Below are positions 43,920-50,605 of a stretch of DNA of 64,000 bases, one piece after another. Position numbers and translations under genes: made by a program. The notes under the pieces were generated by a model. That model saw nothing but the letters and a program-made list of their open reading frames with translations. It did no database searches and was not told where the DNA came from. The number at the start of each line of letters is the position of its first letter. Position 1 is the first letter of the stretch. This DNA is from Escherichia coli (GTDB lineage Bacteria > Pseudomonadota > Gammaproteobacteria > Enterobacterales > Enterobacteriaceae). Location: NCBI RefSeq assembly GCF_041886205.1, contig NZ_CP169029.1; one strand, written 5' to 3'.

Positions 43920-45416
43920 ATGGAAGAAAACACAAGGCAGCGTACAGAAAATTATATTTCAGCAAAAAACCAGCATCCCGCCTGGATACTCCTTGCCACT
44001 CGCCGTGCTCCACTGGTATTGAGTTGCCTGAAAACGCTTTTTGAAAAATCACATGATGGCATTCCCCTTGAGGAAGCTATTCAGTCTCTTTCCAGTATTC
44101 TCATTGAGCATGTGAGTCAGGAACAGTATGACATTAATCAGGACAATCCATTTCTTCAGGCCAGTCGTGAACTGCGGGAGTGGATTAAACGCCGTTTAAT
44201 TGTCGAACGGGATGGCCGTATTTTTGCTACCGATGCGCTTGAGGTCGCGATTACGTTTGTAGAGTCTCTGGATAATCGTTTTATGACCTCTACGGCTTCC
44301 CGTTTGTCCACCGTTCAGCGAGAAATTGAAAACCTGGAAACACGGCTTAATCCTAACCCGGCAAACCGGGTTGCAACCTTACGTCGTCGTATTTCTGAAC
44401 TGGAACGCGAACTACAGGAGGCAGAAGCCGGGCATATTGAGGTGCTGGAAACGCACCAGGCGGTTGAGCATATTCGTGAGGTCTACAATTTAGCTTCCAG
44501 CCTGCGGGCTGACTTTCGTCGTGTTGAAGACTCCTGGCGTGAGGCTGACCGCGCTCTTCGCCAATCCATTATTGGTGAGCAATATCATCGCGGCGATATA
44601 GTAGAACGCCTGCTCAACGATCAGGACGCGCTGCTTAATACGCCGGAAGGAAGAGTTTTCGACAGCTTTCAGCAACAGCTCCGTCAATCTTCTGAACTTA
44701 AAGCGATGAGTGAACGATTACGTGTGATCCTTAGCCATCCTTCTGCTTCTGATGCGCTTAACCGTCTACAGCGTCACGATCTGCGCTGGCTGGTTAAACG
44801 TCTGGTCGATGAATCGCAAACTGTCCTCCAGGCTCGCGCCCGTAGCGAGCGTGATGTCCGTGGTTTCATGAAAACCGGTCTTGCTGCTGAACATCATCGT
44901 GTTGGTCATTTGCTTAATGAGTTTCTGAATCTGGCGTTAAAACTCGACTGGCAGCGCCAGATGATTCGTAAACAAGAGGTGCCGCTACCTGCCGTTGGTG
45001 TGGCGGTAACAGGCATCCCCGCTATTGAACGTTTACGTTTTAAAGAGGTGGATGATGAAGCAGAGCAGACGTTGGATCTCAGTAATCATGCGGCGGATTT
45101 AACGCAGATTGGCGATGATTTCTGGGATGCCTTCAATGGCCTCGATCGTGAGGTGTTGATTCAGCAGACGTTGCAGCTTCTTGCAAAAGAAAATCGCCCC
45201 GTTGGCCTGGCTGAACTGGCGGCGCTGTTACCCCCGGCTCACGATCTCGAAACATTCGCCGTCTGGATTGGTATGGCAAGAGAAGCGGGTATTGAGGTTA
45301 TTGATTCACAGCGTGAATTTGCAGAGCTTAGTGATGGGGAAGGTCGCCGCTGGCGATTTAATCTGCCCACCACCGGTCTGGAAAGTCAGGCATTAATGGA
45401 TATCGATTGGGAGTAA
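43920..45416 (+). CDS. jetA: Wadjet JetA (kleisin-like, MksF-like)
   Basis: 498 aa, largely helical and charged. The call rests on position and size in a four-gene set (about 500, 250, 1100 and 390 aa) with JetC and JetD signatures downstream. Confidence 0.75.
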   Translation: MEENTRQRTENYISAKNQHPAWILLATRRAPLVLSCLKTLFEKSHDGIPLEEAIQSLSSILIEHVSQEQYDINQDNPFLQASRELREWIKRRLIVERDGRIFATDALEVAITFVESLDNRFMTSTASRLSTVQREIENLETRLNPNPANRVATLRRRISELERELQEAEAGHIEVLETHQAVEHIREVYNLASSLRADFRRVEDSWREADRALRQSIIGEQYHRGDIVERLLNDQDALLNTPEGRVFDSFQQQLRQSSELKAMSERLRVILSHPSASDALNRLQRHDLRWLVKRLVDESQTVLQARARSERDVRGFMKTGLAAEHHRVGHLLNEFLNLALKLDWQRQMIRKQEVPLPAVGVAVTGIPAIERLRFKEVDDEAEQTLDLSNHAADLTQIGDDFWDAFNGLDREVLIQQTLQLLAKENRPVGLAELAALLPPAHDLETFAVWIGMAREAGIEVIDSQREFAELSDGEGRRWRFNLPTTGLESQALMDIDWE

Positions 45417-45421
45417 CAGGT

Positions 45422-46171
45422 ATGACGGGCTTTTTTGACAGGCTGATTAACCGGAGCGTTACCGCAAATGCAGGCTGTGAACCAGAACCATCGGATGAGG
45501 AGGTTACCGATGAGTCGGTTGAAGAAAGTTTGGCCAGTAGTGAAACGCGGACGCTAAAAAAAATACGTGAAGCGACTCAGGAATTGCTCAAATACGGCCT
45601 GCTGGAAGAGGCCAGTAAGCCCAATCTGTACCGCATCGTACTGAGCCATCCTGAAGAGGTTACTCGTATTCTGGAGCCTCTCGATCTGGATATCGGCATT
45701 GATGAGATCCGTGGCCTGCTGTATGTCAAAGTCAGGCTTGATGAAACGCCTGCGCAGGATGAATGGGCCCACCCTCTGGTGAGGCGGCAACGACTAAACC
45801 TGGAACAATCTTTATTAGTTGCCATACTGCGCCAACATTTTGTGGCCTGGGAGCAGGAAAGCGGAACCGGTGCCAGTCAGGCACAGATCGCCATCGATGA
45901 TCTTCTCCCTCAACTCCAGATTTATCTTGGCGACCCGGGCAGTGAATCAAAAGAACGCACCCGATTGCTTACCCTGCTGGATCAATTAAAGGGGCATGGG
46001 CTGGTGACGTCGCCGGATGCACATGAGCGGATCGTCATCCGTCCGATCATTGCTCATCTTGCCGATCCGATCAATCTTCAGGCATTACTGGCATGGCTGC
46101 GAGAGCAAATTGCCCAGCAAACCTCTCCAAATGACGCGCGAGAAAAGGATAGCAGCGAGGAGGACGTATGA
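45422..46171 (+). CDS. jetB: Wadjet JetB (MksE-like)
   Basis: About 249-aa acidic protein; ATG at 45422 just after the jetA stop (the track ORF starts at TTG 45407); its stop overlaps the jetC start (ATGA). Confidence 0.75.
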   Translation: MTGFFDRLINRSVTANAGCEPEPSDEEVTDESVEESLASSETRTLKKIREATQELLKYGLLEEASKPNLYRIVLSHPEEVTRILEPLDLDIGIDEIRGLLYVKVRLDETPAQDEWAHPLVRRQRLNLEQSLLVAILRQHFVAWEQESGTGASQAQIAIDDLLPQLQIYLGDPGSESKERTRLLTLLDQLKGHGLVTSPDAHERIVIRPIIAHLADPINLQALLAWLREQIAQQTSPNDAREKDSSEEDV

Positions 46172-49455: not shown

Positions 49456-49456
49456 G

Positions 49457-50605
49457 ATGTATTCCCCAGATGAATTGCGTGAAAAGCTTGCCCGGCAGTG
49501 GGATAGCGCAAAACTTCGGGCTGAACGCTTACTGTCCCCCGGTAACTGGCCGCTCTGCCTGCCTATTGGTAAACCTTCCACGAAAATATTTGCAGAGCAG
49601 ACTCAGCGCGTTTTGCAGCACGTACAGCGATGGAGGCAAGTTGCGGTTGGGCACGTGGAATGGGAAGCGGTGAGTTATCGGGCAAGTGATACATCAGTAT
49701 TAATGCCGTTGCGCTGGATTCTGAATAGCCCTTCTGAGTGGATCAACGCCGCTGCGGATCCGGTTGTGAGCCGGGAATTTCGCTTGCTGGAAGGAATTAT
49801 TGAACAAGTTAATCCCATTTTTCACCCGCTGTTGGTAAAGCATCGCTCTCTCTGGCGGCACAAAGATCCGCAGGGCGTCATCAGCGCCGCCACGCTGGCC
49901 TGCCGATTAGAGCCGGGCTGCGCAAAAGGGCTGCCGTTAAGATTGCTTTCCGGGCAAGGAGTGGATACCAAATTTATCGAGAATAATATTTCGTTATTAA
50001 CCCGACTGTTAGACGTGCGGTTTTCAGGAGAAGCCAGCGAGCAGGGATTAACAACTTTTCTTGATGCTTTTGATGAGTCCAGTCACTGGGTTTTAGTTGT
50101 ACCATTATCACCCGGCTTACTTCCTTTTAAAAAATGCCGGGTAACAACGGCGGAACTGGCAGAAACAACATTACCTGCGTCGCAAGTACTGGTGGTTGAA
50201 AATGAGCAGTGTCTGCATCATCTTCCAGCATTATCTGACACTATCGCGATTTTAGGCTGTGGCCTGGACGTGCAATGGCTATCCAGTTCTGTTCTGGATG
50301 AAAAACGCGTTGCTTATTGGGGGGACATGGATAGCTGGGGATTACTGATGCTGGCGAGAGCCAGGCGCTGTCGTCCGACGCTTGATGCCCTGCTCATGAA
50401 CCGTGAGTTGTTTGAGCAGTATGCCAGTCATAGCGCCGTTCCAGAACCGGTCATAGCGAAGGAAGCTGTACCTGATGGCTTGCTTAACGAAGAGGCCGAT
50501 TTTTATCGCTACTTAACCCGTTTACCGTGTGGTCGTCTGGAGCAGGAGTTTTTGCCAGTGGGGATTGCGGAAGAGGTGCTTCTCAGGTGGGGAAAAGAGA
50601 GTTAA
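49457..50605 (+). CDS. jetD: Wadjet JetD (Toprim-domain nuclease, MksG-like)
   Basis: About 382 aa from the ATG at 49457, directly after the jetC stop. Toprim-like acidic motifs VVENEQ and WGDMDSWG in the C-terminal half. Confidence 0.8.
   Translation: MYSPDELREKLARQWDSAKLRAERLLSPGNWPLCLPIGKPSTKIFAEQTQRVLQHVQRWRQVAVGHVEWEAVSYRASDTSVLMPLRWILNSPSEWINAAADPVVSREFRLLEGIIEQVNPIFHPLLVKHRSLWRHKDPQGVISAATLACRLEPGCAKGLPLRLLSGQGVDTKFIENNISLLTRLLDVRFSGEASEQGLTTFLDAFDESSHWVLVVPLSPGLLPFKKCRVTTAELAETTLPASQVLVVENEQCLHHLPALSDTIAILGCGLDVQWLSSSVLDEKRVAYWGDMDSWGLLMLARARRCRPTLDALLMNRELFEQYASHSAVPEPVIAKEAVPDGLLNEEADFYRYLTRLPCGRLEQEFLPVGIAEEVLLRWGKES

What the first reader, a model, noticed from the sequence alone, without database searches (positions are those of the whole stretch)
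43920..50605. Complete four-gene Wadjet (JetABCD) SMC-like anti-plasmid system next to glcA
The gene sizes and order (498, about 249, 1095 and about 382 aa), overlapping start and stop codons, SMC-type Walker A, signature and Walker B motifs in the large protein, and Toprim-like acidic motifs in the last protein fit the Wadjet/MksBEFG-type architecture. It lies at the chromosome-proximal edge of an accessory island. Wadjet restricts circular plasmid DNA, so it bears on plasmid transformability of this strain.
Basis: partly seen in the sequence, partly recalled or inferred. Interest (0 to 1): 0.75.

Follow-up and report, generated by a model that had tools for sequence, protein, structure and literature searches.

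The report
Known E. coli Wadjet anti-plasmid operon
This is an intact copy of the E. coli JetABCD (Wadjet type I) plasmid-cutting system, 98-99.6% identical in protein sequence to the E. coli GF4-3 system whose structure and mechanism are already solved, so the call is correct but not new.

Summary
Window 43920-50605 carries four intact same-strand genes: jetA (498 aa), jetB (249 aa), jetC (1095 aa) and jetD (382 aa), starting 412 bp after glcA.

- **Family match.** All four give full-length top hits to the PADLOC type I models JetA1, JetB1, JetC1 and JetD1 (E from 1e-116 to 0) and to the expected Pfam families.
- **Identity to the solved system.** The proteins are 99.6, 98.0, 98.7 and 99.0% identical to JetABCD of E. 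coli GF4-3. That system has cryo-EM structures (8AS8, 8BFN, 8Q72) and published evidence that it cleaves circular plasmids up to about 100 kb.
- **Catalytic residues.** JetC Walker A, signature motif, Walker B E1022 and F919 are present, as are JetD E248 and DxD 290-292.
- **Public record.** The four exact protein sequences are already in public databases.

Two corrections. Only jetB and jetC overlap. The operon lies outside the pheV island, which begins at 50986 after a 22-nt copy of the pheV 3' end.

The operon is rare: jetC occurs in 8 of 5,426 complete E. coli genomes, and only 4 of those copies are intact. Native expression is untested. RefSeq splits jetC into two pieces. Verdict: already known, low interest.

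The parts
43533..43561 (+). Intrinsic terminator-like hairpin of glcA (13-bp stem followed by T-rich tail); marks the upstream limit of the jet transcription unit
   Evidence: Scan; sequence.
43562..43919 (+). Spacer upstream of jetA, presumed to hold the native jet promoter, which was not identified
   Evidence: No sigma-70-like site on the + strand in this spacer, and site counts for the region are not above shuffles. The spacer occurs only in genomes with jet DNA (13 of 5,426).
43920..45416 (+). jetA, 498 aa, kleisin (MukF-like, DUF3375)
   Evidence: PADLOC JetA1 E=1.3e-272 over residues 1-498. Pfam DUF3375 E=3.4e-106. PDB JetA 8q72_E and 8as8_E. 99.6% identical to GF4-3 JetA.
45422..46171 (+). 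jetB, 249 aa, KITE subunit (MukE-like, DUF4194). ATG start; the longest ORF starts at TTG 45407.
   Evidence: PADLOC JetB1 E=1.3e-116. Pfam DUF4194 E=6.5e-28. PDB JetB chain starts at ORF residue 6. 98.0% identical to GF4-3.
46168..49455 (+). jetC, 1095 aa, SMC-like ATPase (MukB-like). Walker A 43-50, signature 985-989, Walker B 1018-1022 (E1022), F919 that docks JetD.
   Evidence: PADLOC JetC1 1623.8 bits over residues 3-1093. Pfam AAA_29 + SbcC_Walker_B. PDB JetC 8as8_A 2413 bits. 98.7% identical to GF4-3, with all 14 differences in residues 283-933. Motifs.
49457..50605 (+). jetD, 382 aa, Toprim nuclease (DUF3322 + JetD_C). E248 and D290-x-D292 intact. ATG start; the longest ORF starts at TTG 49421.
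   Evidence: PADLOC JetD1 E=5e-193. Pfam DUF3322 E=4.8e-44 and JetD_C E=3.9e-41. PDB JetD(E248A) 8q72_M. 99.0% identical to GF4-3.
50930..50955 (-). Terminator-like hairpin that follows pheV in island-free genomes, retained here next to the pheV 3' repeat
   Evidence: alignment with GF4-3.
50964..50985 (-). 22-nt copy of the 3' end of tRNA-Phe (pheV) with one C missing. It is the distal repeat of the pheV island and the right-hand limit of the jet locus.
   Evidence: Sequence. Comparison with the full tRNA-Phe of GF4-3, MB53 and 14EC033. Homology to island-free genomes ends at 50985. No complete tRNA in the window.

Best explanation
The locus is an intact chromosomal type I Wadjet operon, jetABCD, in Escherichia coli. 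It is an allele of the system characterised from E. coli GF4-3.

The mechanism below comes from the published work on that near-identical system, not from anything shown here. JetC is the SMC ATPase, JetA the kleisin and JetB the KITE subunit. They form a dimer-of-dimers motor that loads on DNA and extrudes it using ATP. On a small circular molecule the two motor units run into each other and stall, holding a sharply bent residual DNA segment. A JetD Toprim dimer docks on the JetC heads through JetC F919, kinks that segment and cuts it. The plasmid is thereby linearised and lost. Linear DNA and circles above about 100 kb, including the chromosome, escape.

Shown here: gene content and order, intact reading frames, intact catalytic and docking residues, near identity to the solved complex, and genomic position.

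Inferred: that the operon is expressed from its own promoter in this strain and restricts incoming plasmids there.
For: - **Profile matches.** Full-length PADLOC JetA1/B1/C1/D1 matches and the matching Pfam families.
- **Solved structures.** PDB matches to E. coli JetABCD entries 8as8, 8bfn, 8q72 and 9qx* over the whole length of every subunit.
- **Identity.** 99.6, 98.0, 98.7 and 99.0% protein identity to GF4-3. None of the differences falls in the ATPase or Toprim motifs.
- **Residues with known phenotypes.** JetC E1022, JetD E248 and JetC F919, whose mutation abolishes restriction or cleavage, are present (10.1101/2022.10.04.510915; 10.1101/2023.11.03.565488).
- **Same locus.** The position between glcA and pheV is the same as in GF4-3 itself.
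- **Real alleles.** All four exact proteins are on many public E. coli contigs, so they are not assembly errors.
- **Published activity.** Plasmid loss in vivo, cleavage of circular but not linear DNA, and the limit of about 100 kb are.
Against: - No expression or activity data exist for this strain, and the published in vivo work used an arabinose promoter in K-12.
- No convincing sigma-70 promoter was found upstream of jetA.
- JetD carries S80, where every other E. coli allele examined and P. aeruginosa JetD have P. The effect is unknown.
- JetD C358 replaces the R found in GF4-3 and P. aeruginosa, but the other intact E. coli alleles share C358.
- The operon has been inactivated repeatedly in other E. 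coli, so an intact sequence does not prove the system is in use.
Confidence: 0.93

Rival explanations
1. The operon is intact in sequence but silent or too weakly active in its native host. The cause would be lack of expression or the private JetD P80S change, and the operon would then not affect plasmid uptake by this strain.
For: - No recognisable promoter in the 358-bp spacer.
- JetD S80 replaces a proline conserved in GF4-3, in six other E. coli alleles and in P. aeruginosa JetD.
- Published restriction data rest on Pbad expression.
- The locus decays readily in E. coli. Only 4 of the 8 full-length copies in complete genomes are intact, and there are about 18 remnants.
Against: - All 2,224 codons are open, and every motif and docking residue is kept.
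- The exact JetD S80 protein is found on 23 public contigs, so the allele persists.
- The simple promoter scan is insensitive.
Confidence: 0.2
2. The system acts mainly against phages, as the RefSeq product name 'Wadjet anti-phage system protein JetD' implies, or against phage-plasmids and circularised phage genomes, rather than against ordinary plasmids.
For: RefSeq names the jetD remnants that way. Circular phage genomes under about 100 kb would in principle be substrates of a topology- and size-sensing nuclease (inference).
Against: The published work on this very system shows restriction of circular plasmids, and the linear plasmid pJAZZ escapes it. From my own knowledge of Doron et al. 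2018, Wadjet reduced plasmid transformation and gave no protection against the phages tested. Nothing here tests phage defence.
Confidence: 0.07
3. It is a second chromosome-organising condensin (a MukBEF-like paralogue) or a DNA-repair ATPase of the SbcC/RecN type.
For: PGAP labels the C-terminal part 'SbcC/MukB-like Walker B domain-containing protein'. There are weak generic head-domain matches to SMC_N and SbcC_Walker_B.
Against: - NCBIfam SMC_prok_B scores 36.5 bits against a cut-off of 567.
- Pfam MukB N-terminal gives E = 0.92.
- The partners are JetA, JetB and JetD, not MukF/MukE or SbcD.
- jetC is absent from 5,418 of 5,426 complete E. coli genomes, so it cannot be a core chromosome function.
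Confidence: 0.01

Closest known systems
E. coli GF4-3 JetABCD (type I Wadjet / JET nuclease; PDB 8AS8, 8BFN, 8Q72, 9QXR-9QXX; Liu, Roisne-Hamelin et al. 2022, Roisne-Hamelin et al. 2023)
   Same: Same species and same chromosomal locus (glcA-jetABCD-pheV). Same gene order and lengths (498, 249, 1095 and 382 aa). Protein identity 99.6, 98.0, 98.7 and 99.0%, nucleotide identity 98.6%. All catalytic and interface residues are the same.
   Different: 25 amino-acid substitutions in total. Those in JetC are confined to residues 283-933. JetD differs at F74Y, P80S, R358C and A374V. A pheV island is inserted downstream here, whereas in GF4-3 jetD is followed directly by pheV.
Pseudomonas aeruginosa PA14 JetABCD (PDB 8DK1-8DK3, 7TIL; Deep et al. 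2022, cited from my own knowledge)
   Same: Type I Wadjet with the same four subunits. There are strong full-length matches: JetC 1567 bits, JetA E=1e-226, JetB E=2e-91, JetD E=5e-147.
   Different: A clearly diverged orthologue in another genus, with N-terminal extensions of about 18 residues in the PDB chains. The window proteins are far closer to the E. coli entry.
Corynebacterium glutamicum MksBEFG (MksG nuclease, PDB 8B7F; PMC10123090)
   Same: Same functional class: an SMC-like plasmid-defence complex with a Toprim nuclease subunit. JetD aligns to MksG over most of its length.
   Different: Only a remote match (E=6e-10, 41.8 bits). It has a different subtype and gene naming and is not a close relative.
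MukBEF condensin of E. coli
   Same: The tripartite SMC / kleisin / KITE architecture from which Wadjet derives. PADLOC describes JetB as MukE-like and JetC as MukB-like.
   Different: MukBEF has no nuclease subunit and is a core gene set, whereas jet is in 8 of 5,426 genomes. The Pfam MukB N-terminal match is not significant.

Membership tests
Wadjet type I (JetABCD) | Four co-directional adjacent genes in the order jetA-jetB-jetC-jetD | tested here: met
   43920-45416, 45422-46171, 46168-49455 and 49457-50605, all on the + strand, with gaps of 5, -4 and 1 nt.
Wadjet type I (JetABCD) | JetA kleisin with DUF3375 | tested here: met
   PADLOC JetA1 E=1.3e-272 over the full length. Pfam PF11855 E=3.4e-106.
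Wadjet type I (JetABCD) | JetB KITE subunit with DUF4194 (MukE-like) | tested here: met
   PADLOC JetB1 E=1.3e-116. Pfam PF13835 E=6.5e-28.
Wadjet type I (JetABCD) | JetC SMC-like ATPase with Walker A, signature motif, Walker B and long coiled coil | tested here: met
   PADLOC JetC1 1623.8 bits. GPTGSGKT 43-50, SGGEK 985-989, IILDE 1018-1022. Pfam AAA_29 at the N-terminus and SbcC_Walker_B at the C-terminus, about 880 residues apart.
Wadjet type I (JetABCD) | JetD nuclease with DUF3322 arm domain and Toprim domain carrying the catalytic glutamate and DxD | tested here: met
   PADLOC JetD1 E=5e-193. Pfam DUF3322 + JetD_C. E248 and D290-M-D292 present. The PDB entry is the E248A mutant of the same protein.
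Wadjet type I (JetABCD) | Subtype I rather than II or III | tested here: met
   Every significant PADLOC hit is to the type 1 models. The only type 2 hit is JetC2 at 16.2 bits.
Wadjet type I (JetABCD) | JetC-JetD docking residue (JetC F919) needed for restriction in vivo | tested here: met
   F919 is present. The requirement is described in 10.1101/2023.11.03.565488.
Wadjet type I (JetABCD) | ATP-dependent cleavage of circular but not linear DNA, and loss of small plasmids in vivo | not testable with these tools
   Shown for the 98-99.6% identical GF4-3 proteins. Not measured for this allele or strain.
Wadjet type I (JetABCD) | Expression from the native locus | tested here: inconclusive
   The consensus scan finds no + strand sigma-70-like site between the glcA terminator and jetA, and counts are not above shuffles. 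No expression data are available.
MukBEF / canonical SMC condensin | Match to the MukB or SMC equivalog models, and core-genome distribution | tested here: not met
   SMC_prok_B scores 36.5 bits against a cut-off of 567.35. Pfam MukB N-terminal gives E=0.92. jetC is in 8 of 5,426 genomes.
SbcCD / RecN / RecF repair ATPases | Family-specific profile match, and the SbcD-type partner for SbcC | tested here: not met
   No NCBIfam hit to these families. There is only the generic SbcC_Walker_B head motif. The neighbours are JetA, JetB and JetD.

The most novel reading that the evidence does not exclude
The glcA-pheV jet locus may be a natural record of conflict between Wadjet and plasmids in E. coli.

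- About 26 complete genomes carry any jet DNA there, and only 4 keep an intact operon.
- The rest carry a shared jetA W206* nonsense mutation, a 5.6-kb internal deletion, IS-associated stubs, or only the 3' half of jetD.
- The four intact-operon genomes seem to have no plasmid records. The one nonsense-mutant strain checked carries plasmids of 114, 109 and 34 kb.

If this pattern holds across all assemblies, it would be population-level evidence that an active JetABCD excludes small plasmids in nature. It would also suggest the system is lost when plasmids are advantageous. The window strain, with its intact operon, would then be predicted to be free of small plasmids and hard to transform.
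Probability: 0.3. Interest if true: 0.35.

Novelty: already known. Interest (0 to 1): 0.12.

Why it matters
There are three practical consequences.

- **For work with this strain.** It carries one of the few intact E. coli copies of a system that destroys circular plasmids below about 100 kb. It may therefore be hard to transform with standard vectors. Linear vectors, or a jet deletion, would be the way round this.
- **For annotation-based surveys.** RefSeq/PGAP splits jetC into a pseudogene fragment and a C-terminal CDS in all 8 complete E. coli genomes that carry it. This includes the reference strain GF4-3, whose JetC structure is solved. Counts of Wadjet taken from product names or pseudogene flags will be wrong.
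- **For biology.** Nothing here is new. The mechanism, the structures and the source locus have been published.

Tried and rejected
1. After I thought about 800 E. coli genomes carried a jetD remnant next to pheV. Dedicated searches showed this was wrong. jetD DNA is in 24 genomes, the jetA 5' region in 13, and jetC in 8. The 800 or so hits were to the last bases of glcA, its terminator and the pheV-proximal spacer.
2. ARAGORN finds no tRNA in the window. An exact or 3-mismatch search for the pheV 3' end also failed, because the copy has a 1-nt deletion. It was found by reading the sequence and confirmed by alignment.
3. Rfam finds nothing in 43000-52000.
4. The promoter scan gives no usable jet promoter, and counts are at the chance level.
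5. I tried to infer plasmid content of jet-positive strains from neighbouring accession numbers. It worked for FHI_NMBU_11, which has three plasmids. For the other strains it gives only indirect hints, because absence of a neighbouring record is not proof of absence of plasmids.
6. A literature search for Wadjet together with pheV returned nothing. A broader search on prevalence in E. coli gave only generic surveys.
7. I did not run structure prediction, fold search or the large protein database searches. Every subunit already has a solved structure at 98% identity or more.
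Full report
**1. What is in the sequence**

The window region 43920-50605 holds four long + strand ORFs and no competing ORFs of note. The longest-ORF coordinates are 43920-45416, 45407-46171, 46168-49455 and 49421-50605. The second and fourth begin at TTG. The deposited PDB chains and the RefSeq annotations of identical genes begin at the ATG 15 and 36 nt further in. The genes are therefore:

| gene | coordinates | length |
|---|---|---|
| jetA | 43920-45416 | 498 aa |
| jetB | 45422-46171 | 249 aa |
| jetC | 46168-49455 | 1095 aa |
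| jetD | 49457-50605 | 382 aa |

None has an internal stop. With these starts only jetB and jetC overlap (ATGA). jetA and jetB are separated by 5 nt, and jetC and jetD by 1 nt. The genes are tightly packed in one operon, but 'overlapping start and stop codons' holds for one junction only.

**2. Identification**

- **PADLOC.** Each protein matches the type I Wadjet models from end to end: JetA1 E=1.3e-272, JetB1 E=1.3e-116, JetC1 1623.8 bits, JetD1 E=5e-193. The only type II hit is negligible (JetC2, 16.2 bits).
- **Pfam.** It gives DUF3375, DUF4194, AAA_29 plus SbcC_Walker_B at the two ends of the long protein, and DUF3322 plus JetD_C.
- **NCBIfam.** It has no dedicated models. The canonical SMC equivalog scores 36.5 bits against a cut-off of 567.
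- **Motifs.** JetC Walker A GPTGSGKT (43-50), signature SGGEK (985-989), Walker B IILDE (1018-1022). JetD E248 in VVENEQ and D290-M-D292.

**3. Relation to what is known**

Each subunit matches, over its full length, the chains of the cryo-EM structures of E. coli JetABCD (8as8, 8bfn, 8q72, 9qxr-9qxx). The P. aeruginosa structures (8dk1-3, 7til) match less strongly, and C. glutamicum MksG (8b7f) only remotely.

The source strain of the E. coli structures, GF4-3, is in the complete-genome collection. Its operon lies at the same place, between glcA and pheV. Translating both gives identities of 99.6% (JetA, 2 differences), 98.0% (JetB, 5), 98.7% (JetC, 14, all between residues 283 and 933, outside the ATPase motifs at residues 43-50 and 985-1022) and 99.0% (JetD, 4).

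The residues whose mutation kills the system are all present. They are JetC E1022 and JetD E248 (10.1101/2022.10.04.510915) and JetC F919, which inserts into the JetD aCAP pocket (10.1101/2023.11.03.565488). Their presence was checked.

All four exact protein sequences are already in public collections on many E. coli contigs: JetA 364, JetB at least 1000, JetC 148, JetD 23. Relatives at 90% identity or more occur in Klebsiella, Salmonella, Citrobacter, Enterobacter and Pectobacterium.

This is an allele of a published, structurally solved system.

**4. Mechanism**

This section is taken from the literature on the near-identical complex and is inferred for this strain.

- JetABC is a dimer-of-dimers SMC motor.
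- The complex cleaves circular DNA regardless of supercoiling, but not linear DNA.
- Cleavage needs ATP and the SMC ATPase, and occurs at random positions.
- In vivo it eliminates circular plasmids up to about 100 kb, while a linear plasmid escapes.
- Structures of plasmid-bound complexes show two stalled motor units holding a U-shaped residual DNA segment. A JetD dimer docks on the JetC heads and converts that segment to a kinked substrate, which is then cut.

Nothing in the window sequence contradicts this.

What remains open is native expression. The glcA terminator is at 43533-43561. The 358-bp spacer before jetA gave no + strand sigma-70-like site, in a scan that is at chance level overall. 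The published in vivo work used Pbad in K-12.

One private substitution deserves a note: JetD P80S. Proline is found at this position in GF4-3, in the five other E. coli genomes I translated and in P. aeruginosa JetD. The S80 protein is on 23 public contigs, so it is a real allele.

**5. Genomic setting**

The window is collinear with the E. coli chromosome from yqhD through metC, exbBD, the hyb operon, gss, pitB and the glc operon. glcB (39299-41470) and glcA (41825-43507) precede the operon.

Downstream of jetD the homology to island-free genomes (GF4-3, MB53, 14EC033) runs through a 358-bp spacer and the pheV terminator hairpin (50955-50930, - strand). It continues into the last 23 nt of tRNA-Phe, then stops at 50985. 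Here that copy has lost one C (TGGTGCCGGACTCGGAATCGAA, 50964-50985), and there is no complete tRNA in the window.

From 50986 on lies the distal end of a pheV-type island:

- a DUF4942 gene split by ISSfl8 (transposase 51662-52666);
- a CbtA/YeeU toxin-antitoxin pair, and RadC;
- an antirestriction protein, DUF932 and IrmA;
- an 840-aa ORF;
- Ag43 (60491-63685).

The operon is thus on the chromosomal side of the island boundary and not part of that island. It is nevertheless accessory. In ZYB39 the same island end abuts yghD/gspM of the type II secretion cluster instead.

**6. Distribution in E. coli**

A sensitive blastn of jetC finds it in 8 of 5,426 complete genomes, always chromosomal and always at this locus.

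- **Nonsense mutants.** FHI_NMBU_11, JNEC-KY202, JNEC-KY174 and CFIAFB20190167 have jetA annotated with an internal stop. Translation of the first three shows it is the same nonsense mutation, W206*.
- **Intact copies.** CX08, CX12, wlxctx60 and GF4-3 carry no jetA pseudogene flag. Translation confirmed all four reading frames open in CX12, wlxctx60 and GF4-3.
- **Remnants.**
  - MB53 and W444 have a deletion joining window 44009 to 49587.
  - LHM10-1 and CP52E keep a jetA 5' stub next to ISEc52.
  - About 13 genomes keep only the 3' half of jetD next to pheV. In 14EC033 it sits beside a type VI secretion cluster.

My first impression of hundreds of remnants was wrong. It was corrected.

One anecdote bears on function. 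FHI_NMBU_11, with its jetA nonsense mutation, carries plasmids of 114, 109 and 34 kb. For the four intact-operon genomes, the neighbouring accession numbers are absent from the collection or belong to other strains. That is compatible with them having no plasmids but does not prove it.

**7. Annotation artefact**

In all eight genomes, GF4-3 included, RefSeq annotates jetC as two features. One is a 156-nt 'ATP-binding protein, incomplete' pseudogene. The other is a 448-aa 'SbcC/MukB-like Walker B domain-containing protein'. The 1095-codon frame is open in the six genomes I translated, and the full-length protein has been purified and solved.

**8. Verdict**

The system is already known in full detail, so interest is low. 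The residual value lies in the practical prediction for this strain, the annotation error, and the small natural series of inactivated copies. That series could be turned into a population test of conflict between Wadjet and plasmids.

Noticed in passing
window 46168-49455; L001 22669-25956, L002 10669-13956, L003 16669-19956, and the same gene in L014-L018: RefSeq/PGAP splits the intact jetC ORF into two features in all 8 complete E. coli genomes that have it, including GF4-3 whose JetC structure is solved. One feature is a 156-nt 'ATP-binding protein, incomplete' pseudogene and the other a 448-aa C-terminal CDS. The ORF is uninterrupted in the 6 genomes I translated.
   Followed up: yes
L014 6422-7918, L015 6422-7918, L016 6422-7918, L017 922-2418 (jetA; corresponds to window 43920-45416): FHI_NMBU_11, JNEC-KY202 and CFIAFB20190167 share a jetA W206* nonsense mutation, confirmed by translation. 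JNEC-KY174 has jetA annotated with an internal stop and was not translated. jetB, jetC and jetD stay open in the three translated. FHI_NMBU_11 carries plasmids of 114, 109 and 34 kb.
   Followed up: partly
window 44009/49587 junction (L005 3511/3512); window 50008-50985 (L004 6001-6981); window 43562-44241 (LHM10-1, CP52E): There is a series of decayed jet loci at glcA-pheV in other E. coli. One is a 5.6-kb internal deletion fusing the start of jetA to jetD (MB53, W444). Another is a jetA 5' stub next to ISEc52. About 13 genomes keep only the 3' half of jetD beside pheV, in 14EC033 abutting a type VI secretion cluster.
   Followed up: partly
window 50964-50985 (- strand) and 50986 onward: A 22-nt copy of the pheV 3' end, lacking one C, marks the distal junction of a pheV island, and the intact pheV must lie beyond the window. 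CX12 and wlxctx60 have the same one-base loss, whereas JNEC-KY202 and CFIAFB20190167 keep CCC but diverge earlier.
   Followed up: yes
window 51096-53025: A DUF4942 gene at the island end is split by an IS110-family element. The transposase (51662-52666, - strand, 334 aa) is annotated as ISSfl8 in the 99.7% identical region of strain ZYB39.
   Followed up: partly
window 53100-63685: The island cargo is typical of CP4-like and pheV/leuX islands. It holds DUF957, DUF5983, a CbtA/YeeU toxin-antitoxin pair, DUF987, RadC, an antirestriction protein (about 55553-56038), DUF932, DUF905, IrmA, an 840-aa hypothetical protein (57854-60376) and the autotransporter adhesin Ag43 (60491-63685). Names are taken from the ZYB39 annotation.
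   Followed up: partly
window 49694-49696 (JetD codon 80) and 48106-48108 (JetC codon 647): Two substitutions are private to the window among the E. coli alleles compared. JetD P80S replaces a proline also conserved in P. aeruginosa JetD. JetC L647I is conservative. The exact JetD S80 protein is on 23 public contigs.
   Followed up: partly
window about 23400-32450: Upstream of yghO and glcC lies a gene cluster that, from memory, is largely missing or degraded in K-12. The collinear CX12 region annotates it as an LPS biosynthesis protein, a YtfJ-family protein, LptF- and LptG-like permeases, serine palmitoyltransferase, acyl carrier protein, an NAD-dependent epimerase and a fatty acyl-AMP ligase. 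This looks like a lipid or aminolipid synthesis and export module.
   Followed up: no
L014 13466-13542: tRNA-Phe of FHI_NMBU_11 is annotated as 77 nt, with CCCC where the other genomes have CCC in the acceptor arm. It may be a homopolymer sequencing error or a real variant.
   Followed up: no
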